64,000 nt of DNA. It comes from a virus. The notes under the pieces were generated by a model that did no database searches, had not been told where the DNA came from, and worked only from the letters and a program-made list of their open reading frames with translations. Position numbers and translations under genes: made by a program. The DNA lies in IMG/VR virus record IMGVR_UViG_3300036985_003683, positions 1-64,000 of that record. The stretch is one strand, 5' to 3'. How positions within the stretch are numbered: the stretch's first letter is position 1; every line of letters begins with the position of its first letter. This document shows positions 30,784 to 56,599 of this stretch, piece by piece.

Positions 30784-31509
30784 CTACTTCTTACGTGCTG
30801 CGGGTTCCCAAATGATCTTGTGCAACTGGAGGGATAACTGTAGAGGGGCCAGTGAGGGGTCACTACTGAGTATCGCGCCCGCGAGTCCCTTAACTCCCAA
30901 CTGACCTTCCCACACGGGACTGAAGAGTGCAGTTGCTTCACAAGATATCAGACGCTGGGATGCCAAGTGTTCTACGGCTTGTTCCCAGTCTTCCATGTCT
31001 GACACTACATACTTGATAGTGTCACGTTTGCGCAAGAAGGTGAAAGCAGCTTGCTTCATCTTCTTGGTCATACCACTCTTGGTCAACTTGTAGTCCACAC
31101 AAATGCTCACGCGCTCTCCAACCCCGTTGGCTCCGAGCTCATCAATGAGAGTGTACGTAGGCATGTGTCCGCCGGTCTCGATCACTATGTAGTAACTGGC
31201 TTCTACCAGCTTCAGAATGAGGGCCAACATGTGTTCTGGATTCTGTTGGAGGGGATCTCCACCAGTGATGCACACGTCGTTATAGGTAGCCCCGAACCCC
31301 TTTACAGTGCTCACGACGTCGTCCACAGAGACGTATTCGCCCTCTTGGACTTCAGACGCAGCCTTGCCAAAGGGCAAACCGTAGGGGGTGTCGCACCAAA
31401 CACATCTCAAGGAACATCCCTGAGTGCGAACAAAGATGGTGGGATATCCTGCACGGATACCCTCCCCTTGTAAAGATGGGTAAACCTCATTGATGTGTAA
31501 CTCGTTCAT
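30784..31509 (-). CDS. queE: 7-carboxy-7-deazaguanine synthase (radical SAM)
   Basis: SLQGEG, CSLRCVWCDT, ITGG, IETGG, LQLHK. Confidence 0.93.
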   Translation of the reverse strand: MNELHINEVYPSLQGEGIRAGYPTIFVRTQGCSLRCVWCDTPYGLPFGKAASEVQEGEYVSVDDVVSTVKGFGATYNDVCITGGDPLQQNPEHMLALILKLVEASYYIVIETGGHMPTYTLIDELGANGVGERVSICVDYKLTKSGMTKKMKQAAFTFLRKRDTIKYVVSDMEDWEQAVEHLASQRLISCEATALFSPVWEGQLGVKGLAGAILSSDPSLAPLQLSLQLHKIIWEPAARKK

Positions 31510-32042
31510 GGTACCTCCTTATGAATGGGACGTTGGTGGGAAGCCTTGATAATATCGGTAGTGGACCATGTCCCCAGAAGATTCAGACGCACTATCTGAA
31601 CTCCGTGTATCTGGTCTTCCTTGGAACACTTAAACGCTGGACGTTCTTCGCTATGTCCGTGTACCACTACCTGGGGCTGCAGTAGGTGTACCAGATGCTC
31701 GGGATGAGGCTCGTCAAACTGTAGAATGTAGTCCACTTCAGAAACGTTAGCCACCATCAACTTACGTGCGTAGGTGTCCCAAATTGGTTCACGCTTCTTG
31801 TATGAGCGGATGGATACGTCTGAATTCACAGCCACGACGAGGAGGGCTCCCTCTGTATGAGCTGCCCTTCCTGCACGTGTTAGAAAGGACAGATGGCCTG
31901 GATGAAAGAGGTCAAAGCACCCAGAAGTGAACCAGATGCTACCACCAGTACCCCTGTGTGGATTATCTCGACGCAATTTCAAAATGCGCGAGAACTCTTC
32001 CACTCCGATGAATTTGGTCTCCTGGGACACAAACTCCATCAT
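31506..32042 (-). CDS. Cytidylyltransferase-family nucleotidyltransferase (HldE domain II/TagD-like)
   Basis: GCFDLFHPGH, VAVNSD, STTDII. Confidence 0.85.
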   Translation of the reverse strand: MMEFVSQETKFIGVEEFSRILKLRRDNPHRGTGGSIWFTSGCFDLFHPGHLSFLTRAGRAAHTEGALLVVAVNSDVSIRSYKKREPIWDTYARKLMVANVSEVDYILQFDEPHPEHLVHLLQPQVVVHGHSEERPAFKCSKEDQIHGVQIVRLNLLGTWSTTDIIKASHQRPIHKEVP

Positions 32043-32383
32043 AGCTGATCTCCCACTTCCACTCGAATAGAGTCTGCCTCGAAGTGTTGAGTGCTCACTT
32101 CGAGAATGACATTGACTTCCTCAACTCCCGTAAACCTGTGCTTCTGGTATGGGAAAATATCCACGGTCATACCAGGGGTCATGAACCGTACCTCTCCCTC
32201 GAGCTCCATCTTGATCTGCCCCTTTAGGACGTGAAAGGTCTCGGTCTTCTGTTCATGGTAGTGGAGACTACACCTCTTGCTAGGAAGCACTGTGAGTAGT
32301 TTACCACAATACAGAGCGGAATTGGAGACCCACTCTTCGCGTCCCCATCCCTTAGGCACTACCTTTATGAATGAGCGAATCAT
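32039..32383 (-). CDS. Cupin (sugar isomerase-like)
   Basis: KGWGRE, SLHYH..KTETF, HRF, EVST. Confidence 0.8.
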   Translation of the reverse strand: MIRSFIKVVPKGWGREEWVSNSALYCGKLLTVLPSKRCSLHYHEQKTETFHVLKGQIKMELEGEVRFMTPGMTVDIFPYQKHRFTGVEEVNVILEVSTQHFEADSIRVEVGDQL

Positions 32384-35019
32384 CTCTCAGCTTTCTTCTT
32401 GGCGATATACTCGTACACTGTGGCAGTCATAGTCTTGTCGACTTCTTCCCAACGCTTCCCGACTTTCAGATCTACTGGGAAGGAGACGTTACCCAATTGT
32501 GGATAAGCACGTTCCATACAGCTATGCATGATCCACGCGGCTTCGAGAACTTCAGTCGCGGGAGTCTCAACGTACAGGGCGTCATGGTGTGTAATGACTA
32601 GTCCAGAGAGCATCTTCTGAGACTTGTACCGCTGGTGCACCTCTGCAGTGGCAGCGGATAGAAGGTCAGAACCGGAACTCTGAACGCCAAAGTTCACAGC
32701 CTGTCTCTCCATTTCTTCGCGTTGGAACTTACACTGCCATACGAAGCTATCATTCCCACCCGAGTAGCGCTTCATGCGTGAAGGGTCGAAGAACTGGTAT
32801 CCGTACAAGCGTCTCTTCCGTCCGAAGTTGTTGCTGACTTCACCCTTCTCGCGTAAGTCTCCATGTTTAGCATCGAAGTAGCGCTTCAGTCCCTTAAAGC
32901 GTGCGAAGTACTTGTTGATGAACTCCTGTGCCTGAGCCTGGGAGACCTGAATTTCTTCAGCGAGACCGTATGCACTGATACCGTACACGATACCGAAGTT
33001 GATCGCCTTAGCTGCCCTTCTCTGTTGATCCGAAACCTCGTCGTATCCCACTCCGAAGGCTTCACCAGCTACCAGCCTGTGAATGTCACGTCCCGTTCTG
33101 AACGCTTCAAGCATGACCTCTTCTTGACAGACTGAGGCCACCACGCGAAGTTCCAACTGGCTATAGTCCGCTTGAAGTAGCCACCAACCCTCTGGTACTG
33201 TGAAGAGGAGTCGCAGCTGTGCGTACTCGGGGTCCTTGTCAGGATCGGGAATGTTGTGAATCGCAGGTTCTGATGTGGACAACCTACCCGTAACAACAGT
33301 ATGCTGCTTGTAGGATGGATACACTCTCCCAGTACGTTCTACCCAGAACTTGATCATGCCACCCTCGCCATCTTTTCCAGCGAGGTACGTACTGATCTTC
33401 TTCTGGCTCTTTCGTATCTCCATCATAGCCCCCACCACTGGATGTGAGGTAGCTTTCCACAGAGCAGCGAGGACCTCCACGTCGGTCGAAGGTGCTCCAG
33501 ATGCTGTACGCTTGTTCACAGGTAGGCCCAAACCTGGGACGTAAGCCTTTCCATCGATCCCCTTGCCGTCCCATCCTGGAGTGGAAGGTGGCGTAGGCGG
33601 ATTGAAGAACGCTTGAACGAGTTGTGCTGGAGACTGTAGGTTGATCTCCCGTCCGACTAACCTCCATACCTCCTGAGTGTGGGTAGCCTCTCGAACGCGT
33701 TCAGTGGCTTGCAACTCCTCCAAGAGGGTAGCGTCCAACACTATACCCCGGTACTCCATATCCACCAGCGCCCTATTCAAGGGCATAACGATCTGTTCGA
33801 AGAACTGTCGTAGTGGGATAGGTTCCCAGACTCCCTCGTGGAAGTGATCAGTATACTCGTAATCGAGCTGTGCTGATAGCGCGTCCCCTACGCGAATCAG
33901 TGCGTCGGCATCGGCTCCAGAATACGTCCACAACATCTCCTCTGGAAAGTCAGCGTACGTGGTGAGTTTGTTGTTTGCCTTCCACTCTTTCAGTGCGTGA
34001 GAGTAGAGAGGCATATTCGTGTACACGCCCAGTAGGAAGTCCAACCCATGGGGAGTATTTTCCTGGAGGGTGTGATGGCAGAGCATCGTGTCGAAGGTGA
34101 ACGAGTCCAGATTGAACTCCCAACCGTTGGACCTGATGAAGTTGATGTCGAAGATGCCGTTCTGTGCCCACTTGGGTGTAACACTGTTCCAGAACTCTTG
34201 CAGGATGGCCTTGACCTGAACGAACTCTTCCTCGGTCCAAATTCTACGCGCTTTATGTCCCAAGAAGGGAACAACAAAGCCCGTACCTGGATACGCACTG
34301 AACGAAGCGCACAAGATGTTCCAATCTGGAACCAAATTGAAGTCCCAGAAGTTGTACGAGGTAGTTTCCAAGTCGAAACCCACTCGAGGTTGAGTGAGTA
34401 GGTAATCTACCATGGACCTCAGATCTGCCAGGTTAGTTATCACCCGGTAGTCGCCCAACTTCTCTTCTGACCAACCCTCGCGAATCATCCTTCCCAACTT
34501 GCGGAAGTCCTCTAGGATGATGGGATAGTCCTCCCAACGTCGGAACACTGTAGAGGGAGAACTCATACAGTAGACTGTGACTGGTTGGGGAAGAACGTGA
34601 CCGTCAATTTCAGTGATGGGGAAGAATCTTCCCCGCATGTCTGTGATGCCAGTGGTACTCATGACCCCCTGAAGAGCGTCAGCACCCATAACAACTATGA
34701 TCTTGGGTCGGACCAGAACGACTTCGTCAATCAGATGAGGCCTACACGCCTTGTGGTGTTTTACTCCGATCGTCTTATTGGGTAATGGTCGACATCGAAT
34801 GGAGCTGGTAACACGAACCTGAGCACGTGTCAACCCAGCTTCGGCCAATAGGTCATTGAAGAGAAAACCAGCTTCACCCGCTAAGGGGAATCCATGATTC
34901 TCCTCGGCAGCTCCAGGTGGTGGACCCACAAAGAGAATATCACATGGAGCAGGTCCAACGCCCTCCATGCAATTCAACAACATAGACGAAGTGTGAAATT
35001 CACACGCGGTACACGTCAT
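32380..35019 (-). CDS. Family A DNA polymerase with N-terminal family-4 UDG-like domain and 3'-5' exonuclease
   Basis: Exo FDLET/NGIFD/YSGAD; motif A ADYSQLELR, B RRAAKAINFGIVYG, C HDAL; N-terminal CxxC...C...C UDG-like domain. Confidence 0.95.
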   Translation of the reverse strand: MTCTACEFHTSSMLLNCMEGVGPAPCDILFVGPPPGAAEENHGFPLAGEAGFLFNDLLAEAGLTRAQVRVTSSIRCRPLPNKTIGVKHHKACRPHLIDEVVLVRPKIIVVMGADALQGVMSTTGITDMRGRFFPITEIDGHVLPQPVTVYCMSSPSTVFRRWEDYPIILEDFRKLGRMIREGWSEEKLGDYRVITNLADLRSMVDYLLTQPRVGFDLETTSYNFWDFNLVPDWNILCASFSAYPGTGFVVPFLGHKARRIWTEEEFVQVKAILQEFWNSVTPKWAQNGIFDINFIRSNGWEFNLDSFTFDTMLCHHTLQENTPHGLDFLLGVYTNMPLYSHALKEWKANNKLTTYADFPEEMLWTYSGADADALIRVGDALSAQLDYEYTDHFHEGVWEPIPLRQFFEQIVMPLNRALVDMEYRGIVLDATLLEELQATERVREATHTQEVWRLVGREINLQSPAQLVQAFFNPPTPPSTPGWDGKGIDGKAYVPGLGLPVNKRTASGAPSTDVEVLAALWKATSHPVVGAMMEIRKSQKKISTYLAGKDGEGGMIKFWVERTGRVYPSYKQHTVVTGRLSTSEPAIHNIPDPDKDPEYAQLRLLFTVPEGWWLLQADYSQLELRVVASVCQEEVMLEAFRTGRDIHRLVAGEAFGVGYDEVSDQQRRAAKAINFGIVYGISAYGLAEEIQVSQAQAQEFINKYFARFKGLKRYFDAKHGDLREKGEVSNNFGRKRRLYGYQFFDPSRMKRYSGGNDSFVWQCKFQREEMERQAVNFGVQSSGSDLLSAATAEVHQRYKSQKMLSGLVITHHDALYVETPATEVLEAAWIMHSCMERAYPQLGNVSFPVDLKVGKRWEEVDKTMTATVYEYIAKKKAER

Positions 35020-35021
35020 AC

Positions 35022-35345
35022 CTAGACTCCCAAAATGACCTTCATTACACGTTGCAAGTCAGTGGACAACTCTACGTTAACGTTGTCATCACTAAACTTC
35101 TTGCCCGTGTATATTGTACCGATTACAGCACCGCGATCTTTTGAGTACTTGACGTCACGAACGCTCCCACAACTCACACCGTACATGTCGAGTAGGGGAA
35201 TTGATGATGGTGTACGTAATGCCACCATGCCTAGTGCATCTTCCCCTAGGCCGTGTGTATTGAGTGGGATCAACACAGTAAGTGTAGCCACTTCTGCATC
35301 TTCTCCTGTATGCCAAACTGTCACCGGATCCCATTCACTAGCCAT
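35022..35345 (-). CDS. Hypothetical protein
   Basis: GGAGG RBS, operon packing. Confidence 0.6.
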   Translation of the reverse strand: MASEWDPVTVWHTGEDAEVATLTVLIPLNTHGLGEDALGMVALRTPSSIPLLDMYGVSCGSVRDVKYSKDRGAVIGTIYTGKKFSDDNVNVELSTDLQRVMKVILGV

Positions 35346-36426
35346 CTAGTACCTCCAACATCTTAGTAAGGGTGTGCCCAAAGTCTACAAGGGACATGAT
35401 CAAGTGTGGAGTGAGTATGATCCAAGGACCAAAGTGATTCACAAGGATGCCCGCCTTGCGCAACTCCAGAGCTGCCCTGGTGGCATCTCCTACGTGGATG
35501 TGTATCATACTTCCAGTGACGCGTACATTCCAATCCTTGAATGTCTCAATGACCAACATTCCCATATTGTAGGAGCGTTGAGCTAGGCACAACTCACTAC
35601 CGTGCCCCTGCTTGATGGTTTCAATCACATTGAGACCTACCTGAGCTGCCCTTGGACTGATCGAAGGCCACCCGCGCGGTGGTTTGTAGCAGTCTTCATA
35701 CCCTGACGCATGGCCTAGGGCACATAGTGGGAGGCCCTGGCCTAGTGACTCTGACGCTATCACGATATCCGCGTGGTGGTGGGCCCCTGAAATGAAGCCT
35801 GTGATCCCGCATCGTGCAAATGACGTGGCACTCTCATCTACGATGACAAATGCCCCGATCTGTTCCGACAGGGACTTGATACGTTCCATCACTTCGTAAC
35901 CAAGGGCAAGTCCCGTGCGTCTCTGCACCGGCTCATAGATGATCGCATCGTACTCTCTGAGTAAGATGTCGGGTACTATATCCCCAGTTAATATATCCGG
36001 AGATAGGGGGCAGGTTTGGAATGGTGCTCTGAAATGGGCGTTTGGTTCTGAGAACTGCTCAGTAGTAATACTCCCCCCATGCTCCCCATCGTCCACATAG
36101 ATCACGCGACGCGCTAGTGCTCCCACAAGTTGTTCGCGGAAAGCAAAAACGCACCGAAGAGCCATTTCGACTGCTTCGGTGCGTGAATGTGTGAAACGCC
36201 AAGTGTTCATCTGTGGATACAGATCACACATGGCTCCTTGTAAACGTTCGACATGCCTGTGTCCAAGTGGACCACAGTGAATGGGAGCTTCAGATACGAG
36301 AGCTCCAGGCCAGTTATGACCTAGAGAAATCTCACCAGCGTTACCACCAGCCAGGTCGATGATAACAGTACCATCTTCCAGTCTATAACTCCAACCCCGG
36401 GCGGAGAAGGTATTTTGAGTAAGCAC
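35338..36426 (-). CDS. Class III aminotransferase homolog lacking the PLP lysine
   Basis: IDL..G...LGHN, TEAVEMAL, EPVQ, VDESATSFARCG, DIVIASESLGQGLP. Confidence 0.8.
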   Translation of the reverse strand: MLTQNTFSARGWSYRLEDGTVIIDLAGGNAGEISLGHNWPGALVSEAPIHCGPLGHRHVERLQGAMCDLYPQMNTWRFTHSRTEAVEMALRCVFAFREQLVGALARRVIYVDDGEHGGSITTEQFSEPNAHFRAPFQTCPLSPDILTGDIVPDILLREYDAIIYEPVQRRTGLALGYEVMERIKSLSEQIGAFVIVDESATSFARCGITGFISGAHHHADIVIASESLGQGLPLCALGHASGYEDCYKPPRGWPSISPRAAQVGLNVIETIKQGHGSELCLAQRSYNMGMLVIETFKDWNVRVTGSMIHIHVGDATRAALELRKAGILVNHFGPWIILTPHLIMSLVDFGHTLTKMLEVLDG

Positions 36427-36429
36427 AGA

Positions 36430-37368
36430 TTACGCTTCCTTGAGAGATGACAGTCTGTCCAATGACTCCCATGACATGGAGTTCTCAACACCTCTGCACA
36501 GTTCCAAGAACCTACATACGTTGTTAGCGATCAGGGCGCGTTCTGCCCTCACCAGTTCGCCTCCAAAGTTCATCTTGAAGTGAGGCTTGACAGAGCCCAT
36601 ATGCAGAGGCCTTCCCTCGACTCCCAATTGCACTGCGAAGGAGGTGTCGATGCTTCTGATCAGGGGATGGATTCTGTAGTGAGGGATGGCCTTGGGCGAT
36701 CGCAGTCCCAGCAGGTGGATAGGCTTCTTCAATGGCCCGCGGTGTATGAACTCGAAACGTGCGTCCCCTGTCAGACTGAGATCTGCTGAAACTCCCAATC
36801 CACCCGAGAGTAGATTGATCAGAGCCAAACGGGCTGTCTCGGATTCATCACCAATTCCAAAGTCGGTCAACACGCCGCGCATGTCGTGTGGAATCTCACA
36901 ATAGGAGACTCCGATGACATCCACTCGTGGATTCTCTTCCATCCACTGAAAGCAGTACAACCATTCGCGAAGGGACTTGCCCTGCACCACTCCTTGTATC
37001 GCAAATGGAAAGTCGTCAGACATTTCCAAGAAGGTTTCCATCCCGTGAATGGTGCGTTCCATGTCGTTCAGAAAGTCTGTTGGAATGACTTCGTCGGCGT
37101 CCAACGTGGTAGCGATGTCGAGCAACTTACGATTGGTAGGCGGATTCTGTGGGTCCTCGAAAATGCCCGAGTCCACTACGCGGTACCGGTGAGGAGGTCG
37201 CTCAGCTACGAACATTTCGCGATACTTAACATCGCGAATGGCAGTGAGTCCAATGAGGAAATCGAAATCAGTGAACTCGTTCACTACGCTGTGTACACAC
37301 AGTGGGTACTCAGCAGCTACCTTGAGTGTGCGCGAATCGCAAGGCATCACTCGGACTTTAGACGTCAT
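36430..37368 (-). CDS. tRNA-guanine transglycosylase-like (DpdA-like) protein
   Basis: VVDSGIFE, PTD, GVVQG, IHLLG, RSIDTS; inside a folE/queD/queE cluster. Confidence 0.75.
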   Translation of the reverse strand: MTSKVRVMPCDSRTLKVAAEYPLCVHSVVNEFTDFDFLIGLTAIRDVKYREMFVAERPPHRYRVVDSGIFEDPQNPPTNRKLLDIATTLDADEVIPTDFLNDMERTIHGMETFLEMSDDFPFAIQGVVQGKSLREWLYCFQWMEENPRVDVIGVSYCEIPHDMRGVLTDFGIGDESETARLALINLLSGGLGVSADLSLTGDARFEFIHRGPLKKPIHLLGLRSPKAIPHYRIHPLIRSIDTSFAVQLGVEGRPLHMGSVKPHFKMNFGGELVRAERALIANNVCRFLELCRGVENSMSWESLDRLSSLKEA

Positions 37369-37672
37369 TATCAGTTCTCTCCCTGTTCCAAATTTCTTGA
37401 CCCAATAGGCCATACCCAGCCAAATCTGAATACGGATTCTCTTCGTCCACTCTACGGTTGGGGCTAGCGATCCTCACCATCTTGTCAAACATGCGAGCCA
37501 AGAGTAACGCGTGATTGTAATCGGCACCTGACATACCCTGGGGGTACAGCAAGCGTAGGAACTCCCCAGTAAGAGCAAAGGCTTCTCCATACTGGACGTT
37601 CTTGACATCTACCAATTGGCCAATTTCAACTGCAAGCTTTTCGAATGGACCTGGATCGCGCTCGTTGGTCAT
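37358..37672 (-). CDS. Nucleotide-modification-associated domain protein (DUF1599/NMAD1-like)
   Basis: KNVQYG, RMFDKMVRI, DLAGY pattern. Confidence 0.7.
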   Translation of the reverse strand: MTNERDPGPFEKLAVEIGQLVDVKNVQYGEAFALTGEFLRLLYPQGMSGADYNHALLLARMFDKMVRIASPNRRVDEENPYSDLAGYGLLGQEIWNRERTDNDV

Positions 37673-37706: not shown

Positions 37707-38303
37707 CTACCGTGAAGTCAACTCAACAATCTTGAAGAATTCATCCTTCAAGGTGGTCTCAGACAGCATCTTACCCCGCATAGCGGACGTGGTGGTGTTG
37801 TGCCCTGGAGACTTAACTCCCCGCATAGACATACAGAGATGTTCACCACTCATCACAACGGCGACCGCTGCTGGGTTCAGCTTCTCCACAAGCAAGTCTG
37901 CGATCTCCTCAGTGAGGCGCTCTTGAACTTGCAATTTGGCAGAGAGGTGTTGCACTGTTCGAGCTAACTTGGACAGTCCACACAACTTATCACTGGGCAG
38001 GTATCCAATGTGACACTTCCCGAAGAAGGGCACCATGTGATGGGAACACAGCGAGTAGTATGTGATCCCCGTGGTCACAACAAGTGAAGGTTCTGCCCCC
38101 TCATCAAGTGGAAATGTGGTGAAGTTGAAATCGGGCTCCTTGTACCCCCGAAGCAGTTCGTGATACATCTTGGCGACACGTTTAGGCGTATCCACAAAAT
38201 GTGAATCCTCTACGGGAGCTCCGCACCTCTGCATGAACTCTCGGAACAGAGCCTCGGTATCAACGTGTGCGAGTTCAGGATTCGAGCGGGATATGGCTGG
38301 CAT
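37707..38303 (-). CDS. folE: GTP cyclohydrolase I
   Basis: TPKRVA, SLCSHHMVPFFG, GLSKLAR, QERLT, HLCMSMRGV. Confidence 0.96.
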   Translation of the reverse strand: MPAISRSNPELAHVDTEALFREFMQRCGAPVEDSHFVDTPKRVAKMYHELLRGYKEPDFNFTTFPLDEGAEPSLVVTTGITYYSLCSHHMVPFFGKCHIGYLPSDKLCGLSKLARTVQHLSAKLQVQERLTEEIADLLVEKLNPAAVAVVMSGEHLCMSMRGVKSPGHNTTTSAMRGKMLSETTLKDEFFKIVELTSR

Positions 38304-38850
38304 GTCTGGACCTTTTGTAAACACATACTGAGACGTGGGGTTCGAATTCCCAATCGCGTTTAGAGATCAACGTGACGTTATTCGCAGTTGCCCAAGACTC
38401 AAAGGAGTTGCGGAAATTGAAATTAGGAAAGTCACTTGGACTTTCCGACTCTAGGAGGAACAAGTATGCCCAATGTGACTCCTGTAGGAGTTGTAAGTGG
38501 GCTGGGAAGTTCTCAGGGGGAATGTGCTGCATTACGTAGCACGAGAGAACAGCGGTTACGTCGAAGGGAGTGCCGTAGGGAAGAACCTCCAATGGTGTTG
38601 TACACGCTTGTGGCATGTTGATGTTGCGGTCTATGGATATGACGTGAAAGCGCGTACTCAGGGGCTGTGATACCCGTCCCACGCCACACCCCAAATCTGC
38701 TACTCGTCTTCCCTCACTAACGTACACAGAAATCAGGTCCATGATGGCACGAGGTTCGTCATACCATTTGCGGAGGGTCATCAGTCCACCTGTGGAGGCA
38801 GCGTGGGCTTCTTCCCCTTCCAAGTTGGCCCAATCAGTGACGGTCTTCAT
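38275..38850 (-). CDS. Class I SAM-dependent methyltransferase
   Basis: VADLGCGVGR, VMQHIP. Confidence 0.8.
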   Translation of the reverse strand: MKTVTDWANLEGEEAHAASTGGLMTLRKWYDEPRAIMDLISVYVSEGRRVADLGCGVGRVSQPLSTRFHVISIDRNINMPQACTTPLEVLPYGTPFDVTAVLSCYVMQHIPPENFPAHLQLLQESHWAYLFLLESESPSDFPNFNFRNSFESWATANNVTLISKRDWEFEPHVSVCVYKRSRHASHIPLES

Positions 38851-39287
38851 AGAGAGACTTCCGCGAAGCAGTTTTCTGTCTCCCACAGTGTAACCTTCAC
38901 TATGGTGATATCACAATCTGCGAATACGTGTGGACACACACTCGTCAGTAGGAACTTTGCCATGTTCTCGGCAGTGGGGTTGTCTGGGAGTACAAAGTAC
39001 TTCTGATTAACTGCATCGCCATGTGTCCACACAGTCACCAGAGGATCGTTCTGGAAGAGGATCATTCCATGATCCCAATTGTCATCGATCCACCGACCGA
39101 GTTTCTCCTTGATTACACCGAAATCGATGATTCTGCCCAGGGTGTCCAATTCTGGAGCGTATGCTTCCACGAGTAGGACATAGTTGTGTCCGTGTAGGTT
39201 GTTACACTTGCTTTCGTGCAGGTGTACACGATGCCCCGAACAGAACTGGAATCGACGTGTGCAGGAGATTCTAGGACTTTTTACCAC
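38847..39287 (-). CDS. queD: 6-carboxytetrahydropterin synthase
   Basis: FCSGHR, CNNLHGHNY, IDFG, WDH, PTAEN, WET. Confidence 0.93.
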   Translation of the reverse strand: MVKSPRISCTRRFQFCSGHRVHLHESKCNNLHGHNYVLLVEAYAPELDTLGRIIDFGVIKEKLGRWIDDNWDHGMILFQNDPLVTVWTHGDAVNQKYFVLPDNPTAENMAKFLLTSVCPHVFADCDITIVKVTLWETENCFAEVSL

Positions 39288-39466: not shown

Positions 39467-40612
39467 CTAAGCAGCTCGCAGAGCGAGGTGGTAGTGCTTC
39501 TTGCCTTCAACTTCAGTGCAGATGAGTTCGTTGCTGGCGATAAGCGCTTCAACAGCACCTTCCTTGAGCGAATGACGTCGGACTGAAACTTCCTTGGTCG
39601 CTTCGCCGTCAACAACATTTTCCTTGACTGCAGAGTGATCTTCCAAGTGACCCTTGGCACGAAGTGCAACGATCAGATCGGCAGCGCGAGTACCCTTGTT
39701 GGCTGGAAACTCGTTCGCAATACTCTGTGCGAGTTCTTCGCGTGAATGTGGACCGGACATCAGCTTTTCGAAAGCGACGTCCATCATGGTTCGGCGTACC
39801 TTCTTCTCAGCTGGTACAGTTGGTGCGGCAGTTGCTGGCGCGTCAGACATGGCAGTATTCCTCAACATAAAACTTCTTGGAACTCCTGAAGGAACTGTTC
39901 CTCCAGTTTCTATGCGCACTTTGGAGCACGCGTCAAAATCAACACAGGCATTACACTCTGAAGCAGCTCCGTTTGGATGTAACCCAAAGCAGTCGTTCTC
40001 AATCACGCCTGTTTCTCCTTTGCTCGCATTATTATACCGCAAGCCTGAAAGTTTTTCCTGAATCTCTGCATTTGCAAGAAGTACTGTGTCGTACGGCACT
40101 GATAACAGTGGTGCGATCTTGGTCAATGGTACCCGCTGGGGATAGCTGCACCATCGTACGTCTAGAATGACGCGCGCTACTGGCGACAGTACCCTCCACA
40201 GCTCTGTGTACAGTATGTCAGCTGCCTGTTCATCTGCAAGTACTTCAGCAGCGTCACTGATTGGCTGATCTGGATACTCGGACACAAACGTAACGTGCCT
40301 GGCTTGCGTAGCACTAGCAGCGCCCATGTCCCTATACCAATTGAACAGTGACGTAATCAAGTACGTCTTGAAGGTAGCCTTCCCCCTAGGGCCTACTCGC
40401 GTAGGGTCGTACTTCCCTGGGGTGTCCAAAAAGCCTGCGCATGATAGTAAGCACATGAACCCTTCTTGAAGAAGGTCATCGTACTCGTAAGACGCACACC
40501 AAGAGGACTTAGCTCGACTTGCTGAAATCCTGATGGTCTCTCCATATTCCTGATACAAACGCGTAGACTCCTGTGTCTGCTCGTCTGTCAACTTAACGGC
40601 GGTCTTCACCAC
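39467..40612 (-). CDS. Sigma70-like factor with Cys-rich and HTH-like C-terminal extension
   Basis: Region-2-like YDDLLQEGFMCL...YDP...FKTY...NWYRD; region-4-like LSPVARVIL...KIAPLL. Confidence 0.7.
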   Translation of the reverse strand: MVKTAVKLTDEQTQESTRLYQEYGETIRISASRAKSSWCASYEYDDLLQEGFMCLLSCAGFLDTPGKYDPTRVGPRGKATFKTYLITSLFNWYRDMGAASATQARHVTFVSEYPDQPISDAAEVLADEQAADILYTELWRVLSPVARVILDVRWCSYPQRVPLTKIAPLLSVPYDTVLLANAEIQEKLSGLRYNNASKGETGVIENDCFGLHPNGAASECNACVDFDACSKVRIETGGTVPSGVPRSFMLRNTAMSDAPATAAPTVPAEKKVRRTMMDVAFEKLMSGPHSREELAQSIANEFPANKGTRAADLIVALRAKGHLEDHSAVKENVVDGEATKEVSVRRHSLKEGAVEALIASNELICTEVEGKKHYHLALRAA

Positions 40613-42531: not shown

Positions 42532-43068
42532 TCACTTCAGTGACTTCACCTCAACTGGAGAGAATGCCATATCAACGAGCCTGCCTAGGATACTCACAGA
42601 GACTGTTATGACGTCTGTAGTGATTTCGGCCACTCGTCCTGTATGATGCATCAATGGACCAGATACAATTTCAACCTCGTCGTCTACCCTTAGTGTGACG
42701 ACATTATCCACTGAACGATTGTGCATGTTCAACATGCGTGTGACATCCGCTTGAGGGATGCCGTCTAGAGCACTACTCACATCGGGAGATAGGAACCCTC
42801 CCACTCCCTTCACTTCGCGAACTGCCTCGACTAGATCAAAGTCAGCGTTTGCCACTCGTAAGAAGATGTAGCCCTGTGCTGCGGGTTCTGAGGCAACCAC
42901 CGTCTTCTTGTTCACCACCTTCCGCACACTGACCAGTGGGAGGAAGACTTCCAACAAACACTGATGCTCACTCATTAACTCGCGCAACTTAGCAGCAACC
43001 TGCACGTCATTCCCAGAATGCGTCCAAACTACTAACCACTTACGCGGAAATCTCTTGACTTGCACCAT
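42532..43068 (-). CDS. NusG-family transcription factor (NGN + KOW)
   Basis: WLVVWTHSG, VFLP, GYIFL, GVGGFL, VEIVSGP, ILGR. Confidence 0.85.
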   Translation of the reverse strand: MVQVKRFPRKWLVVWTHSGNDVQVAAKLRELMSEHQCLLEVFLPLVSVRKVVNKKTVVASEPAAQGYIFLRVANADFDLVEAVREVKGVGGFLSPDVSSALDGIPQADVTRMLNMHNRSVDNVVTLRVDDEVEIVSGPLMHHTGRVAEITTDVITVSVSILGRLVDMAFSPVEVKSLK

Positions 43069-43081
43069 AAACCTGTTCCCC

Positions 43082-43783
43082 CTAGTCAGTTCGCGACTTG
43101 TCATATTCTTCCTCTAGCGAGATAATATACGCTTCTTGCTGATTAGAATTCATCGCTGAATACTTGACGTGGTCGATCGCTGATTTCACCCAAGTGGAGC
43201 GAGCTAGTGCCTGTGTGTGTACCTGTGTGGGTCTTCTCTCCACTTTCACTGTCGCCGCCTTGGGCTGTGTTGTAGCTGGAGAGTGAGAGCGTGCAGAGTC
43301 ATTCCTAATGATACCCCTAGCGTACGCTTCACCATACTGACTAGCTTCAGAAAGTCCATGGTAAGTTCTCAATCCCCGAATTACCACTTCTCGTTCGAAT
43401 GTGTTGTAATACTCCAATTCGTCTAGCTTCTGGAGTGGAGTCAAATCGGGCTTGCCACGTTTGCCTGCGAATAGTACAAAAGTGGACCCTATGATCCTCC
43501 GCTCCAAATCCGTGTATCTGCCTAGTAGTACTTCTATCACATCTGTGGGTGTAGACTGGTGACCCCAAAGGGTCTCACATAGTACAGTCTGTCCTAGCAC
43601 AAATCTACCTAGACGCTGATGTCCCTTAATCCAATGTGAATTCCTCAACTCGGTGGTCTCAGTCTTGTAGCCCTCGTGGTTGGGCAAATCGCATATGACC
43701 ATTCCCTCATCATGGGAGCGTATGTTACACATGAATAGGTAGAGTTCCTGAGCCCTGCTGCTAACCGCGCGTGGTTGTGGCAT
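43082..43783 (-). CDS. Hypothetical protein (replication-associated?)
   Basis: Long ORF between helicase and nusG-like gene; no recognised motif. Confidence 0.6.
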   Translation of the reverse strand: MPQPRAVSSRAQELYLFMCNIRSHDEGMVICDLPNHEGYKTETTELRNSHWIKGHQRLGRFVLGQTVLCETLWGHQSTPTDVIEVLLGRYTDLERRIIGSTFVLFAGKRGKPDLTPLQKLDELEYYNTFEREVVIRGLRTYHGLSEASQYGEAYARGIIRNDSARSHSPATTQPKAATVKVERRPTQVHTQALARSTWVKSAIDHVKYSAMNSNQQEAYIISLEEEYDKSRTD

Positions 43784-45209: not shown

Positions 45210-45444
45210 AAATCAACCCTTTCGCACAATGCTTGCATACAGACTTGCCTAGAAGGCGTACAAGTGTGTCGTCGGAATTTTCGTAAATGACGCAAGTGCC
45301 TGGTATGACCTTGTCGTCGTGAATGAGCCTCCTGCCACATTGAGAGCATCCACATAGTAGGTGAATGCGCTGGATTGCTCCTAGGGTAGCTAGTCTGAGC
45401 GTATCCTCGGAGTCTATATCATTCCAGAAATCTGAGACAGTCAT
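45184..45444 (-). CDS. Small zinc-binding hypothetical protein
   Basis: CSQC...CKHC; GGAGG RBS. Confidence 0.55.
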   Translation of the reverse strand: MTVSDFWNDIDSEDTLRLATLGAIQRIHLLCGCSQCGRRLIHDDKVIPGTCVIYENSDDTLVRLLGKSVCKHCAKGLIFDNHTHRS

Positions 45445-46280
45445 CGGACCTCCAAATACTCCCTGATAGAATTGGTTATTAAAGGTAGAGACCAATTATA
45501 CCTCGTCGACAAATTAAATACGTTGTGTTCAAGTGTTCCCACTGATGTCCCCGTTACCTCACGCGAAGACCCATACTCCTTAACTATGTCGCGTGCGAAA
45601 CTGTACCAAGAGTAGTCACGCAGATGTGGTGGAGCTATATGTACTATGCGTGGGACGTAATCCGTCACCACCAATTCCGCGAATACGTCAGCGATGTGGG
45701 GACAGTATCCTGGGCTGCATCCCATATTGGATGGAAACTCCAGGGGCTCGCCACTCTCCACCTTACGAAGTACCTGTTCAACGAAATTGGGACGTGACTT
45801 ACCTCTACAGGGGGAGGGTCCATACAGGGCCGAAACACGGACGACTGTGTTTTGGTGCCTCAACAGCGTTTCGCTAGCTCTCTTGCTGTCAGAGTACACT
45901 GACTTGTGACTGATACTGGTCTCAGTGTCCTCGTAGCAAACCCCCGGAGAGGAAAATACCATATCCGTACTGACGTGAAACAGCTTGGCGGATACCTTCC
46001 GTGCAGTGTGATCCATCACTGCCACTGCTAGGGTGTTCACTGCACGAGTGGTGGTGGGCTGCAGTTCACACTTGGCTATATCATGCATAGCTGCGCAATT
46101 GATGATTACGTTGGGGTTCTCTGCTATGATGTACTCTTGCAGTCCGAACAGATCGGTCACATCGCATTCCGAATGAGTGGGAGTGATCAGATAGTGACCC
46201 CTCTCCAGCAATCGGCTAGATATGGCGCTTCCCAATTGACCTTGCGCACCCAGTACTAGAATCCTCATGTTGTGACTCAC
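45441..46280 (-). CDS. RmlD-like NDP-4-keto-6-deoxyhexose reductase
   Basis: GAQGQLG, INCAA, STDMVF, YSDSK. Confidence 0.88.
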   Translation of the reverse strand: MSHNMRILVLGAQGQLGSAISSRLLERGHYLITPTHSECDVTDLFGLQEYIIAENPNVIINCAAMHDIAKCELQPTTTRAVNTLAVAVMDHTARKVSAKLFHVSTDMVFSSPGVCYEDTETSISHKSVYSDSKRASETLLRHQNTVVRVSALYGPSPCRGKSRPNFVEQVLRKVESGEPLEFPSNMGCSPGYCPHIADVFAELVVTDYVPRIVHIAPPHLRDYSWYSFARDIVKEYGSSREVTGTSVGTLEHNVFNLSTRYNWSLPLITNSIREYLEVR

Positions 46281-46401
46281 TTCTACGATACACCTTGAGA
46301 GTGGACATAATTACCACAAACGCGAAAAGGAACGAAGCCCCCATAAGGAAGAAGCCTCCGTGCACATATAGACTTCCATTTTCGTACGAAAACACATGCA
46401 T
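46216..46401 (-). CDS. Small single-pass membrane protein
   Basis: GGFFLMGASFLFAFVVIM then basic residues; GGAG RBS. Confidence 0.5.
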   Translation of the reverse strand: MHVFSYENGSLYVHGGFFLMGASFLFAFVVIMSTLKVYRRSESQHEDSSTGCARSIGKRHI

Positions 46402-46402
46402 A

Positions 46403-47371
46403 TCATACTCCAGGTGGTAGATAGAGGTCGCGAATCCAATGGCGCATTCGTACGACTTCATGCATCCAAGGAACATTGCGACTGGTTGGTTCGTTGAAGT
46501 TAAATCGGGAGTGCAGCAACTCCTTCACGGCATAATCAATAGTGAGTTGTGCTTGCAGACCTAGGGAAGTAGCTCTCTCACATGTCATGTGATACGAACG
46601 AGCACTTCCAGAATCGTTCCCCTCCATGATTTCAATCGCAGGTGCACCAGTGTGTAGTCCCACCAATCGAGCGATATCCAACATGGTGTAGTTATGCTTG
46701 CACAAGTTGATGGTAGTGGGTACCTTCATCCTGTCTAGCAGCATCATCATGAGTGTTGCGTAGGCGTTCACAGCGTCTGTGACATGTAGGAGAGGTCGCT
46801 CAGTGTTGGGTCCCCAAACACGTATCTTACTCTCATTGGCCGCAGAGGCCGTCATAGCATTTACTACCAAATCCATACGTGTACGCTCAGACCCCAATCC
46901 CATAAGTGTCCCCTTTCGAAGACAGGTATAGTCATGGGGTCTCAGCTTTCTCGCGATGTATTGCTCAGCTGCCCACTTGAGTTTGCCATAGTCACAGATA
47001 GGTGTTGGATCAGTCTCATCTCCCACTACGTCTTGAGAAAAACCATACACGCTTGCGGTAGATGCAAAGACCAGTGGAATACGCTTACCAGTCTCAAGAA
47101 TCATATCCACTAGATGTCTGGTTTCCGAGAGTGAGAACTTCTGCAGGTTCTGAAAGTCACTCCCTGCGGATGAGAACCACGCCAGATGGAAGATGCCGTC
47201 GTACTCTTTCAACTCCCAGGATTCCAGTGTGCCCACAGTGCGATTGGATATCCTTGCAGGGTACGTAAACCACCCCGCGTCCAAACAGTCCACCTCCATG
47301 CCACTCGCAATGAGGAGCTTCACTAGACCCGCCCCAACGTATCCACTCGACCCTGTGACTAGGAACTTCAT
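46403..47371 (-). CDS. NAD-dependent sugar epimerase/dehydratase (SDR)
   Basis: VTGSSGYVG, HLA, STASVYG, YGKLK, RMDLVVN, RPLLHVTD. Confidence 0.9.
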   Translation of the reverse strand: MKFLVTGSSGYVGAGLVKLLIASGMEVDCLDAGWFTYPARISNRTVGTLESWELKEYDGIFHLAWFSSAGSDFQNLQKFSLSETRHLVDMILETGKRIPLVFASTASVYGFSQDVVGDETDPTPICDYGKLKWAAEQYIARKLRPHDYTCLRKGTLMGLGSERTRMDLVVNAMTASAANESKIRVWGPNTERPLLHVTDAVNAYATLMMMLLDRMKVPTTINLCKHNYTMLDIARLVGLHTGAPAIEIMEGNDSGSARSYHMTCERATSLGLQAQLTIDYAVKELLHSRFNFNEPTSRNVPWMHEVVRMRHWIRDLYLPPGV

Positions 47372-47916
47372 TTTGGTCTCACTTCCCAATAGACTCCAGA
47401 TGTCTTGAACGCATCATACGAAATGCGTTCCTCATCTGGCTTGTTACGGTCGTACACTTCTGAACCAGTGCACACCATGATTGTGTTAGGTGTCAGGGAC
47501 TGCCAGCCGTGCCAGAACCCCGGCGGAATGGTCAACCTCTGCATAGGCGCTGCCGACAGGATGAACTGACGTGCTTCACCCTCTGGAGATACGACCCACA
47601 CACGGGCCTTACCGTTCACTATTGTGAAGAAGTCCCACAGTTTCTCGTGTCGATGGAACGCCCGGATGGTCATGGCCTGTTCATTGCGTACAATGTACGT
47701 TTGGCCAAAGTTACCAACCTGAAGTGGAACTTCCACCCGAGCAGGCGTACCCTCAATCGGAAGGAGTACTGGTCCCTCCTTACGGTGTACGACTGACTCT
47801 GCCCTGAAGTATTCCACCGTGGGTAGATCGTAGTTGTGTACAATCTCAGTCAGATCTCCCCGATCGTCGTGCAATGTTGTCAAAGCCTCAAGGAGAGGCC
47901 CGTTCTGCTTAATCAT
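47368..47916 (-). CDS. RmlC-like 3,5-epimerase
   Basis: DDRG, IRAFHRH, IPPGFWHGWQ. Confidence 0.88.
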   Translation of the reverse strand: MIKQNGPLLEALTTLHDDRGDLTEIVHNYDLPTVEYFRAESVVHRKEGPVLLPIEGTPARVEVPLQVGNFGQTYIVRNEQAMTIRAFHRHEKLWDFFTIVNGKARVWVVSPEGEARQFILSAAPMQRLTIPPGFWHGWQSLTPNTIMVCTGSEVYDRNKPDEERISYDAFKTSGVYWEVRPK

Positions 47917-47947
47917 CCCAATCTCCATTAGTAGGTCGTACCAAAAA

Positions 47948-51834: not shown

Positions 51835-51875
51835 CGTTTCACCTCTATAGACATCGATTTAACCACAGTTATCAG

Positions 51876-51922
51876 CGTTAAAGGCAATAAAGTACCGGCC
51901 CCGCTACATAAAGTACCCGCTA
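51876..51922 (-). repeat. 47-bp dispersed repeat, copy 2 (inverted)
   Basis: Reverse complement matches 19719-19765 at 39/47. Confidence 0.8.
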
Positions 51923-51928
51923 CGTAGC

Positions 51929-53284
51929 CTATGTTCTCCGTGAGCGATCCAGTAGTCTCTGCCCCAGCTCGTTTAGTTCGTCTGTGGAGAACCTCGAATT
52001 CTCGGAATACGACAGTGAACACATCTTAGTGCTGGAGCTCCCCAACCTAGACTTGTAGACGAGACTGAAGAGCAGGTCCAACTCTGGAAATGCAAGTTGA
52101 CCACTGTCCAGGTGGACGTCCAATACGTCTTCGGTTCTGACAAGGAACACCCTAGGTAATGCGTCTAGTGTGTATAAACTGGCGAGCTCCATGGGTGGAG
52201 TCTTGTTCAGAGTTATGCCGTCATAGGGTAACGGTATGTGCAACTCTTCCCACATGTGAGACAGGTCGTCACTGGAGAGATTGAAAGAGTCCAACCAACC
52301 CAAGCGGTACATCTTGCTGGAGACTGATACACTAGGTACTACGAACGAGTCATTGGGGTGGTCGAGTAGGTGACGTAATCCATGTACTAGGAACGACCTG
52401 TTGACCTGATCAGAAACGCGCATCAACATCACTGTGGACCCGGAAGACATACGCATCCCTTCCGTGAACACTGTAGTGGCAGAGCGCGTTCCACCTTCGG
52501 ACAGTACTACTGGGATCTGTGTACCTGTCAAGTAGTAGGTGGCTAGCGATGCACCCCCAAACTCCATTTTGGGAGTCAAGTAGGAAAGAACGTTAGGACA
52601 CTGGGATGTGTTGACTAATACCAACTCCACACTTCGTATAAACAACGTCCGTACATGGTCTAGGAACTTACGTAAATAGTCTGGTCCCATCCAACAGTCT
52701 ACCACTATCGAAGTGGAGACAGAATCACGTGTCAGGACTGGCTTCCGCACTATCCTCTCAGGATTGCAGGTGAGAACCAAGCAGTCCCACCCAGTGGTGG
52801 ATTGAAGCCTCCGCTGCTGCAACTCGTCACATACCCACCCACCATTTTCGAAAATGCCCTTGTAGAAGGAGGTAGTGCGAGTGATCTCACCACCTACGCC
52901 TGGTGAATTGAGTATCACTAGCCACTTCTTACAATGTACGCGTGACCACCTTACGAACTCGTTAAGTTCGTCCTCGTCAAAACACCCCAACAGCTTAGAC
53001 GCTAGTAACACGTCGTAAGTATCCTCTTCACTGAGGAAGCTACGGAGATGTACGTTTTCTACAACTCGACTGTCCACGGCGAATGGATTCACATCGATAC
53101 CGTTAGCAACCACAGAGTGGTCCTCACGAAGATGCTTCACCACCCAACCTAGTCCACACCCAACGTCCAAAACTGAACCTGGGAATAACTCTGCGATCTT
53201 GGTTGCGATCATGAACAGATGTCCATCGCCTACCAACATTCCCCGAGATTCGCAGTACTCACGATCGTATATCATTGTGTACAC
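51929..53284 (-). CDS. Methyltransferase fused to degenerate GT-A-like domain
   Basis: VLDVGCGLGWVVKHLR, paralogous to the 50005 N-terminus; C-terminal half lacks a clear DxD. Confidence 0.7.
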   Translation of the reverse strand: MYTMIYDREYCESRGMLVGDGHLFMIATKIAELFPGSVLDVGCGLGWVVKHLREDHSVVANGIDVNPFAVDSRVVENVHLRSFLSEEDTYDVLLASKLLGCFDEDELNEFVRWSRVHCKKWLVILNSPGVGGEITRTTSFYKGIFENGGWVCDELQQRRLQSTTGWDCLVLTCNPERIVRKPVLTRDSVSTSIVVDCWMGPDYLRKFLDHVRTLFIRSVELVLVNTSQCPNVLSYLTPKMEFGGASLATYYLTGTQIPVVLSEGGTRSATTVFTEGMRMSSGSTVMLMRVSDQVNRSFLVHGLRHLLDHPNDSFVVPSVSVSSKMYRLGWLDSFNLSSDDLSHMWEELHIPLPYDGITLNKTPPMELASLYTLDALPRVFLVRTEDVLDVHLDSGQLAFPELDLLFSLVYKSRLGSSSTKMCSLSYSENSRFSTDELNELGQRLLDRSRRT

Positions 53285-56586: not shown

Positions 56587-56599
56587 GGGGGCAGTCCTC

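What the first reader, a model, noticed from the sequence alone, without database searches (positions are those of the whole stretch)
35338..36426. Class III aminotransferase with the Schiff-base lysine replaced by glutamate
Seen: DIVIASESLGQGLP where the family consensus is D-x4-[AGS]-K-x3-G-G-x-P, so K aligns to E. The PLP aspartate (VDESATSFARCG) is kept, the SGxEA loop reads SRTEA, and the ORF is intact directly behind the TGT-like gene. Established: this lysine is essential for transamination, while some PMP-dependent sugar dehydratases (ColD, E1/AscC) lack it. Inference: a repurposed enzyme with different chemistry, or a binding/scaffold pseudoenzyme, serving base or sugar tailoring.
Basis: partly seen in the sequence, partly recalled or inferred. 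Interest (0 to 1): 0.72.

Follow-up and report, generated by a model that had tools for sequence, protein, structure and literature searches.

The report
Lysine-less aminotransferase-like protein beside phage DpdA3
A phage that replaces guanine in its DNA with a 7-deazaguanine carries, right behind the base-swapping enzyme, an intact vitamin-B6-type aminotransferase look-alike that has lost the catalytic lysine and other cofactor-binding residues, so it probably no longer transaminates.

Summary
ORF 35338-36426 (minus strand, 362 aa) is a class III aminotransferase-fold protein (Pfam 57.8 bits; AlphaFold pLDDT 92; Foldseek top hits ArgD/GabT). Its Schiff-base lysine is Glu226 (codon GAG).

The change is not isolated. 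The phosphate-loop glycine is Arg, FHGK reads EHGG, and the Thr loop has a 3-residue gap.

The gene upstream is a DpdA3-type DNA guanine transglycosylase. FolE, QueD and QueE lie nearby, and a Gat-QueC fusion lies outside the window.

Related short aminotransferases sit inside 7-deazaguanine clusters in all 6 loci I could read. I found no paper describing this.

The syntenic ortholog on a metagenome contig keeps Lys and all motifs (its DpdA3 is 52% identical, its aminotransferase only 28%). Four other relatives (S, T, P, S at the Lys site) show the same multi-motif loss, and a 104-aa fragment, the closest relative, also has Glu.

Best reading: a transamination-dead protein kept for a non-catalytic or non-PLP role in the deazaguanine module (0.5). 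Rivals are a decaying relic (0.25) and lysine-independent chemistry (0.15). The ColD/E1 analogy is not supported.

No closer homologs, neighbour contexts of the Lys-less relatives, or biochemistry were available.

The parts
35338..36426 (-). Lys-less class III aminotransferase-fold ORF (362 aa, GTG start, stop included) = P0001
35749..35751 (-). GAG codon of Glu226, at the Schiff-base lysine position (one transition from AAG)
36172..36186 (-). SRTEA (res 81-85): phosphate-binding loop with Arg where 18 of 18 Lys-bearing relatives in the table have Gly
35806..35841 (-). VDESATSFARCG (res 196-207): the Asp that pairs with the PLP ring nitrogen (role recalled) is kept; Glu198 is invariant in 99 of 99 aligned rows
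35728..35769 (-). DIVIASESLGQGLP (res 220-233): the Lys motif with Glu
36435..36441 (-). AAGGAAG ribosome-binding site, 8 nt before the GTG start
36430..37413 (-). DpdA3-family DNA guanine transglycosylase (327 aa), directly upstream
37707..38324 (-). FolE, GTP cyclohydrolase I
38275..38886 (-). 203-aa class I SAM methyltransferase-like protein (weak Pfam hits); 36% identical to a cluster gene of L013
38847..39410 (-). QueD with the CxxxHGH motif (so QueD, not DpdL)
30784..31509 (-). QueE radical SAM enzyme
35022..35345 (-). 107-aa orphan ORF overlapping the end of the aminotransferase-like gene by 8 nt
32380..35019 (-). UDG-exonuclease-PolA fusion, downstream

Best explanation
The gene encodes a folded class III aminotransferase-type protein that can no longer carry out PLP-dependent transamination. 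It descends from a phage-specific family of short (about 340-395 aa) class III aminotransferases that live inside 7-deazaguanine DNA-modification clusters. In one branch of that family, which sits beside a DpdA3 transglycosylase, the Schiff-base Lys and most of the cofactor pocket have been lost, yet the ORF has stayed full-length. I infer that the protein is kept for a non-catalytic or at least non-PLP role in the DpdA3 module, such as binding a small ligand or a protein partner. Shown: fold, family, the residue losses, synteny and faster divergence. Inferred: loss of PLP binding, retention under selection, and any binding role.
For: 1. Fold and family: Pfam PF00202 57.8 bits. The AlphaFold2 model has pLDDT 92.4 and pTM 0.92. 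Foldseek top hits are ArgD, GabT/PuuE and OAT, with TMq 0.81-0.86 among the top ten.
2. Multi-motif loss (24 aligned rows). The five Lys-less rows P0001, P0006, P0007, P0008 and P0010 have E, S, T, P, S at the Lys site. 0 of 5 keep the Gly of S/T-G-x-E-A (R, Q, E, L, E instead). 1 of 5 keeps the His of F-H-G. 3 of 5 keep the ring Asp. All 5 have a shortened or divergent Thr loop. All 18 Lys-bearing rows keep Gly and F-H-G.
3. Family context. AT(-like) genes lie within 7-deazaguanine clusters in 6 of 6 loci annotated: the window, L002 (cultured Synechococcus phage), L007, L008, L009 and L013.
4. Synteny with L013: FolE 59%, DpdA3 52%, methyltransferase-like 36%, AT 28% identity. L013's AT keeps Lys and every motif.
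5. Faster divergence. Over five contigs the DpdA3 pairs are 53-61% identical. The one K-K AT pair is 44%; the three noK-noK pairs are 29-34%.
6. Persistence. The five Lys-less proteins are 346-366 aa, intact, 25-29% identical to the query, and share 27 invariant columns. The closest relative of all, fragment P0024 (43% over 77 residues), also has Glu.
7. Expression signals: RBS, a 3-nt gap to dpdA3, an 8-nt overlap with the next ORF, and GC like the neighbours.
Against: No biochemistry was done, so PLP or PMP binding is only inferred from motifs. P0001 itself keeps the ring Asp197 and His116, so a weakened pocket is possible. No dN/dS could be computed because no relative is close enough and no DNA of the Lys-less relatives could be fetched; 'kept by selection' therefore rests on intact length and conserved columns alone. 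The high pLDDT comes from an alignment dominated by canonical enzymes and does not prove that this sequence folds. The Lys-less group is a clade only at SH-aLRT 91 with a long-branch warning. An AU test does not reject P0001 grouping with the Lys-bearing P0004/P0005 instead (p 0.25), so one old loss versus several recent losses is open. The pairing of P0006 and P0007 with DpdA3 genes rests on equal contig lengths and sources, not on seen DNA. The Glu226 codon has no independent assembly support.
Confidence: 0.5

Rival explanations
1. Decaying relic. The transaminase step became unnecessary in this lineage, for instance because a Gat-QueC fusion makes the amidine directly from glutamine. The gene is drifting and has not yet been deleted, and it has no function.
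For: It is the most diverged of four syntenic genes (28% against 36-59%). Different residues occupy the Lys site in each Lys-less relative (E, S, T, P, S), as expected without constraint at that site. The contig has Gat-QueC (contig 68773-70140) and no DUF5591/ArcS-like gene, whereas three of the Lys-bearing loci pair the AT with DUF5591. The AU test allows independent losses.
Against: There is no stop or frameshift in 362 codons here, and none in four other Lys-less proteins of 346-366 aa. 27 columns are invariant among sequences only 25-29% identical to the query. Gene packing is tight and an RBS is present. Phage genomes usually shed dead genes (general knowledge). The Lys-bearing P0004 sits in the same lineage, so the step is not obsolete across the lineage.
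Confidence: 0.25
2. A still active enzyme with lysine-independent chemistry. Either it holds PMP or PLP non-covalently (as ColD and E1 do), or it uses the fold for a different reaction on a deazaguanine side chain or its amine donor.
For: Asp197, Glu198 and His116 are kept in P0001. The fold is predicted intact. The position inside a base-modification operon suggests a chemical role.
Against: The phosphate-anchoring Gly is Arg, and the Thr loop that binds the phosphate from the partner subunit has a 3-residue gap (the roles of these motifs are recalled from class III structures, not measured here). The Lys-site residue is not conserved among the Lys-less relatives, unlike the conserved His of ColD/E1 (recalled). 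There is no match to the ColD family PF01041. Only 6 Lys are in the protein, and the one near the site in sequence (K248) is not conserved in P0024.
Confidence: 0.15
3. Assembly or sequencing error, or a minor variant: the real gene has AAG (Lys) at codon 226 and is an ordinary transaminase.
For: GAG is one transition from AAG. The second sample's contigs do not cover the codon.
Against: The other pocket motifs are changed too, and these are many substitutions plus a gap. The source run's contig is identical over the whole stretch at word depth about 11. The closest relative, fragment P0024, also has Glu.
Confidence: 0.03

Closest known systems
Class III (fold type I) aminotransferases: ArgD, GabT/PuuE, ornithine aminotransferase (PDB 7nn1, 6wop, 2ord, 4jev)
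   Same: Same Pfam family and fold. The ring-nitrogen Asp-Glu pair and the overall two-domain architecture are kept.
   Different: About 40-70 residues shorter. The Schiff-base Lys is Glu, the phosphate-loop Gly is Arg, FHGK/R reads EHGG, and the Thr loop is shortened. Only 166 of 1.84 billion library representatives reach E 1e-3, so it is a far outlier.
Phage DpdA3-type 7-deazaguanine DNA modification (Cellulophaga phage phiST, Campylobacter phage CP220, Flavobacterium phage immuto_2-6A; Cui, Hutinet et al. 2023, PMC10516641, passages read)
   Same: DpdA3 homolog plus FolE, QueD and QueE in one replication-linked module.
   Different: This contig has a Gat-QueC fusion, and its QueD-like gene carries the CxxxHGH motif of a true QueD rather than the DpdL motif. 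No aminotransferase is mentioned in that paper's main text or its one held supplement file.
Ser4 of the SerTA heterotetramer, Serratia sp. ATCC 39006 (PMC11726168, abstract read)
   Same: A fold type I aminotransferase homolog without the catalytic Lys that is nevertheless functional, as a non-catalytic subunit.
   Different: Ser4 works with an adjacent catalytic paralog, Ser5. Here the 87-kb contig holds only one aminotransferase homolog. Ser4 is annotated as a sugar aminotransferase, which is a different subfamily.
ColD / E1 (AscC) PMP-dependent sugar dehydratases
   Same: Fold type I proteins lacking the Schiff-base Lys.
   Different: They belong to another family (DegT/DnrJ/EryC1), have His at the Lys site and keep an intact cofactor pocket (recalled). 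Here the family is class III, the residue is Glu and is not conserved, and the pocket motifs are degraded.

Membership tests
Class III aminotransferase (Pfam PF00202) | Profile match above the curated cut-off | tested here: met
   57.8 bits against 30.5, E 1.1e-15, but only residues 161-356 are matched. All NCBIfam equivalog scores are far below their cut-offs.
Class III aminotransferase (Pfam PF00202) | Fold type I two-domain fold | tested here: met
   AF2 pLDDT 92.4. Foldseek top ten E 4e-26 to 1.4e-24, TMq 0.81-0.86 to ArgD/GabT/OAT.
Class III aminotransferase (Pfam PF00202) | Schiff-base lysine | tested here: not met
   Glu226.
Class III aminotransferase (Pfam PF00202) | Asp pairing with the PLP ring nitrogen | tested here: met
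   Asp197 in VDES; its role is recalled.
Class III aminotransferase (Pfam PF00202) | Phosphate-binding S/T-G-x-E-A loop and Thr loop of the partner subunit | tested here: not met
   S-R-T-E-A, and PSIS---P with a 3-residue gap. 18 of 18 Lys-bearing rows keep Gly.
Class III aminotransferase (Pfam PF00202) | PLP binding and amino-group transfer | not testable with these tools
   Needs purified protein.
Phage 7-deazaguanine-cluster short aminotransferases (informal group, not found in print) | Gene lies inside a FolE/QueD/QueE/QueC + DpdA cluster | tested here: met
   The window, plus 5 of 5 other annotated loci.
Phage 7-deazaguanine-cluster short aminotransferases (informal group, not found in print) | Falls in one clade with members of known context | tested here: met
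   A 17-row clade at SH-aLRT 98 holds P0001, L007_AT, L008_AT, P0003 (Synechococcus phage) and P0004 (L013). It is a quick tree with a long-branch warning.
ColD/E1-type PMP-dependent dehydratases | DegT/DnrJ/EryC1 family membership; His in place of Lys; intact cofactor pocket | tested here: not met
   Only PF00202 matches. The residue is Glu and the pocket motifs are degraded. The family features are recalled.
Non-catalytic aminotransferase subunit (Ser4/Ser5 type) | Adjacent catalytic paralog to pair with | tested here: not met
   One aminotransferase homolog in the 87-kb contig, which is estimated 75% complete.
DpdA3 (the neighbouring gene 36430-37413) | Homology to published DpdA3 proteins and a TGT fold | tested here: met
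   tblastn to phiST CGPG_00065, CP220 and immuto_2-6A. Foldseek best matches are TGT, E 3.5e-8. Pfam DpdA PF23859 and the Pfam/NCBIfam scans gave no hit.

The most novel reading that the evidence does not exclude
The Lys-less aminotransferase-fold proteins beside DpdA3 are a new family of non-PLP accessory factors for wholesale guanine replacement. One possible role is a carrier that holds the free 7-deazaguanine base or its amine or keto-acid partner and hands it to DpdA3; another is an enzyme that uses the old PLP pocket for new chemistry on the base's side chain. By extension, the Lys-bearing relatives (with HAD or SurE phosphatases and ArcS-like DUF5591 domains) would make an amine that is attached to preQ0, giving a DNA base not yet described.
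Probability: 0.17. Interest if true: 0.75.

Novelty: new variant of a known kind. Interest (0 to 1): 0.5.

Why it matters
Phage 7-deazaguanine DNA modification protects phage DNA from restriction. The published pathways (Hutinet 2019; Cui 2023) list no PLP enzyme. This window shows a short class III aminotransferase family embedded in such clusters, in DpdA3 and in other DpdA contexts. It also shows that nature has produced both an intact form and a cofactor-pocket-degraded form beside DpdA3 genes about 52% identical. That pair is a ready-made comparison for asking what the transaminase contributes to the modified base, and whether the dead form is a new accessory protein or a gene on its way out. 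On its own, a Lys-less aminotransferase homolog is a known kind of thing, namely a pseudoenzyme.

Tried and rejected
1. Close relatives in public collections. megablast against phages found none. tblastn against phages found only two Synechococcus phages as true phage relatives. The word-indexed protein search found only the query's own shorter gene call. Viral-contig scans with P0001, P0006, P0007 and the P0001+P0024 alignment gave nothing useful; L003 and L004 were 28-residue chance matches. The first metagenome scan found none. DpdA3-profile scans of viral and genome contigs found none. The profile search with the Lys-less alignment returned no clear new Lys-less relative; I did not check the Lys column of its hits.
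2. Two alignments were too divergent for the locus finder, so I used smaller ones.
3. Complex prediction of DpdA3 with the aminotransferase-like protein gave no answer (score 0.00, controls not run). This is no evidence either way.
4. Sequencing runs: no RNA holder is listed. The second sample's contigs leave 35585-35880 uncovered, so there is no independent check of codon 226.
5. 'QueC is missing, so a dDG/dCDG-type pathway': rejected, because Gat-QueC lies at contig 68773-70140.
6. DUF5591 and Pfam DpdA searches of the contig found none. The L013 DUF1599 protein has no homolog here.
7. Foreign insertion: GC is 0.49-0.54 across the region, like the contig's 0.51.
8. Earlier-findings look-ups by place and by sequence returned nothing.
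9. L014 (a 23%-identity hit) was not annotated.

Full report
**The object**

The window is the first 64 kb of an 87,018-base viral record, estimated 75% complete. Nearly all its genes are on the minus strand.

The finding is the minus-strand ORF 35338..36426, 362 aa, with a GTG start. An AAGGAAG ribosome-binding site lies 8 nt upstream. The start comes 3 nt after the stop of the upstream gene, and the ORF overlaps the next one by 8 nt. The record's own gene call is a shorter 255-aa form starting at residue 108. I take the long form as real because homologs align from residues 7-20 onward.

- The strings SRTEA, VDESATSFARCG and DIVIASESLGQGLP are all present.
- Pfam Aminotran_3 matches at 57.8 bits against a cut-off of 30.5.
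- phmmer alignments to solved GABA and beta-transaminases put the Schiff-base Lys opposite Glu226.
- The codon is GAG at 35749-35751, one transition from AAG.
- AlphaFold2 with a 99-row alignment gives pLDDT 92.4. The alignment is dominated by canonical enzymes.
- The best Foldseek matches are ArgD, GabT/PuuE and ornithine aminotransferases, with TMq 0.81-0.86 among the top ten.

**How unusual the sequence is**

An exhaustive HMMER search of 1.84 billion representatives gave only 166 proteins at E 1e-3 or better. Nine reached 1e-10, and only the query's own shorter form reached 1e-30.

I aligned 154 rows:
- the query;
- 149 of the 150 listed hits (the self hit P0002 was dropped);
- P0003 from a cultured phage;
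- three proteins from viral loci.

Of these, 139 have Lys in the critical column and 15 do not, counting the query and one row that is a gap.

**The loss goes beyond the lysine**

A motif table of 24 rows compares five Lys-less proteins with 18 Lys-bearing ones. The Lys-less rows are P0001, P0006, P0007, P0008 and P0010.

| Feature | Five Lys-less rows | 18 Lys-bearing rows |
|---|---|---|
| Residue at the Lys site | E, S, T, P, S | K |
| Gly of S/T-G-x-E-A | 0 of 5 keep it | 18 of 18 keep it |
| His of F-H-G | 1 of 5 keeps it (P0001) | 18 of 18 keep F-H-G |
| Ring Asp | 3 of 5 keep it | not counted |
| Thr loop | shortened or divergent in all 5 | not counted |

A sixth protein, P0040, has Glu at the Lys site in an otherwise canonical background. 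The roles of these motifs in PLP binding are recalled from the class III literature, not measured here.

**The neighbourhood**

- The upstream 327-aa gene has no Pfam, NCBIfam or PDB sequence hit.
- By tblastn it matches exactly the published DpdA3 set: Cellulophaga phage phiST CGPG_00065, Campylobacter phage CP220 and its relatives, and the 'DNA guanine transglycosylase' of Flavobacterium phage immuto_2-6A. The DpdA3 naming comes from passages of PMC10516641.
- Its model (pLDDT 86) has tRNA-guanine transglycosylases as best Foldseek matches.
- Around it lie FolE, a QueD with the CxxxHGH motif, QueE, a SAM-methyltransferase-like gene, a UDG-PolA fusion and a class II ribonucleotide reductase.
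- A Gat-QueC fusion lies outside the window at contig 68773-70140. The gene set therefore resembles the published dG+ type (Gat-QueC named in passages of PMC6884629 and PMC10516641), not a QueC-less one.

**Relatives and their contexts**

Every AT(-like) locus that I annotated lies in a 7-deazaguanine cluster, 6 of 6 counting the window.

- Synechococcus phage Yong-L2-223 (L002): QueE, QueC, QueD, FolE, TGT, clamp, PolA, two ORFs, AT, then a DUF5591 protein.
- L007: QueE, QueC, AT, a 342-aa protein with weak hits to the same two PHROGs as L008's HAD-like/DUF5591 protein, QueD, FolE, and further on a DpdA.
- L008: QueE, QueC, AT, a 318-aa protein with an N-terminal DLDGTL motif (HAD-like by recall) and DUF5591, QueD, FolE, and further on a DpdA.
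- L009: QueE, FolE, a DpdA3 homolog, AT, SurE, DUF5591, UDG-PolA.
- L013, a 5.4-kb metagenome contig: a GATase domain, FolE, DpdA3, AT (P0004), a DUF1599 protein, a methyltransferase-like gene.

All five of these relatives keep Lys. One further locus, L014, was not annotated.

I found no aminotransferase or PLP enzyme in the main texts of the two key papers. In PMC6884629 the word refers to the amidotransferases that make G+. The one held supplement file of PMC10516641 has none either. Two further full-text searches found no description. Other supplements were not seen.

**The closest comparison: L013**

L013 is syntenic with the window. Protein identities between the two are:
- FolE 59%
- DpdA3 52%
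- methyltransferase-like protein 36%
- aminotransferase 28%

L013's aminotransferase has every canonical motif.

The DpdA3 protein has 11 homologs at 50-57% identity. Four of these share contig length and sources with aminotransferase relatives:
- P0163 with P0006
- P0164 with P0007
- P0166 with P0004
- P0169 with P0005

This pairing is an inference, not seen DNA.

On that pairing, all DpdA3 pairs are 53-61% identical. The one Lys-Lys aminotransferase pair is 44% identical. The three Lys-less pairs are 29-34%, and the six mixed pairs are 26-38%. The Lys-less forms therefore diverge faster than their neighbour gene, yet they remain full-length (346-366 aa) and share 27 invariant columns.

The closest relative of all is the 104-aa fragment P0024, 43% identical over 77 residues. 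It also has Glu at the site.

**Phylogeny**

A quick maximum-likelihood tree of 39 rows places the query in a 17-row clade (SH-aLRT 98). That clade holds the proteins of L007, L008, the Synechococcus phage and L013.

Inside it the five Lys-less rows group together (SH-aLRT 91), next to P0004 and P0005. The program warns of long branches. An AU test does not reject the query grouping with P0004/P0005 alone (p 0.25). One old loss versus repeated losses therefore stays open.

**Interpretation**

I read the protein as a transamination-dead descendant of a cluster-specific transaminase (confidence 0.5 that it is kept for some non-PLP or non-catalytic role). The residue losses are shown. Loss of cofactor binding and retention by selection are inferred.

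- A plain relic is the main rival (0.25). It fits the variable residue at the Lys site, and it fits the presence of Gat-QueC in place of the DUF5591 partners seen elsewhere.
- Lysine-independent PLP/PMP chemistry (0.15) fits the retained Asp197 and His116 but not the damaged phosphate site.
- An assembly error at codon 226 (0.03) cannot explain the other changes. The second sample does not cover the codon.

The nearest precedent for a working Lys-less aminotransferase homolog is Ser4 of SerTA (PMC11726168, abstract only). No catalytic paralog is present on this contig.

**Earlier notes of this scan**

A words look-up showed that other windows had already been flagged for aminotransferases in phage deazaguanine clusters, including a QueC-AT-HAD arrangement like L007/L008. 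These are unchecked AI notes on other DNA. I saw that arrangement in my own before reading them. None of the notes, as summarised in the look-up, mentions a Lys-less form.

**Verdict**

The ColD/E1 analogy is not supported. Function remains untested. Interest is moderate. The main value is the natural pair of intact and degraded forms beside DpdA3 genes about 52% identical, and the pointer to an aminotransferase family in phage deazaguanine clusters that I did not find described in print.

Noticed in passing
L007:5812-8703, L008:9189-11916, L009:8304-10898, L002:7776-9790: Lys-bearing short class III aminotransferases are tightly coupled to QueC. They are followed in L008, L009 and L002 by an ArcS-like DUF5591 protein, with an N-terminal HAD-like motif (L008) or a SurE phosphatase (L009). 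In L007 the following 342-aa protein shares only weak PHROG hits with L008's. Gene overlaps are 4-8 nt in L007, and in L008 13 nt between QueC and the AT and 73 nt by my ORF calls between the AT and the next gene. This may make an amine that is attached to preQ0, giving an undescribed DNA base. I found no paper on it.
   Followed up: partly
contig 68773-70140 (= L005:5773-7140, outside the window): A Gat-QueC fusion (GATase_7 + QueC, 455 aa) lies far from the rest of the deazaguanine genes, so reading the window alone suggests a QueC-less pathway.
   Followed up: yes
window 12886-13695, 45441-56658, 31506-32383; contig 65737-76012: An unusually large sugar toolkit for a phage. It has several GT2 and two GT9 (heptosyltransferase-like) glycosyltransferases, RmlD-like and epimerase/dehydratase genes, cupins and a C-methyltransferase. 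It also has a split HldE: a PfkB kinase at contig 73977-74924 and a domain-II-like adenylyltransferase at 31506-32042. The target of the sugars (virion, DNA or host surface) is unknown.
   Followed up: no
window 38275-38886 and L013:4662-5261: A roughly 200-aa SAM-methyltransferase-like protein (DLGCGVGR motif) is conserved at 36% identity in two DpdA3 clusters. It has only weak Pfam hits and was not compared with the published DpdM.
   Followed up: partly
window 39467-40612 and 42532-43104: A phage-encoded sigma-70/ECF-like protein (weak NCBIfam hit) and a NusG-like protein flank the primase-helicase.
   Followed up: no
window 32380-35019 and L009:13993-16455: A family-4-type UDG domain is fused to the N-terminus of the exonuclease-PolA, in both DpdA3-bearing phages.
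   Followed up: no
protein P0040 (376 aa, ENA contig of 1732 b): An independent Lys-to-Glu change (GESLGQG) in an aminotransferase that keeps all the other PLP motifs. It falls outside the 17-row phage clade in the tree.
   Followed up: partly
window 35338-37413: A second sediment metagenome from another study (coded X2) holds contigs identical to this phage over the parts it covers, so the phage occurs in more than one sample.
   Followed up: partly
L013:4022-4585: A DUF1599 ('nucleotide modification associated domain 1') protein follows the Lys-bearing aminotransferase in L013. It has no homolog on the window's contig.
   Followed up: yes
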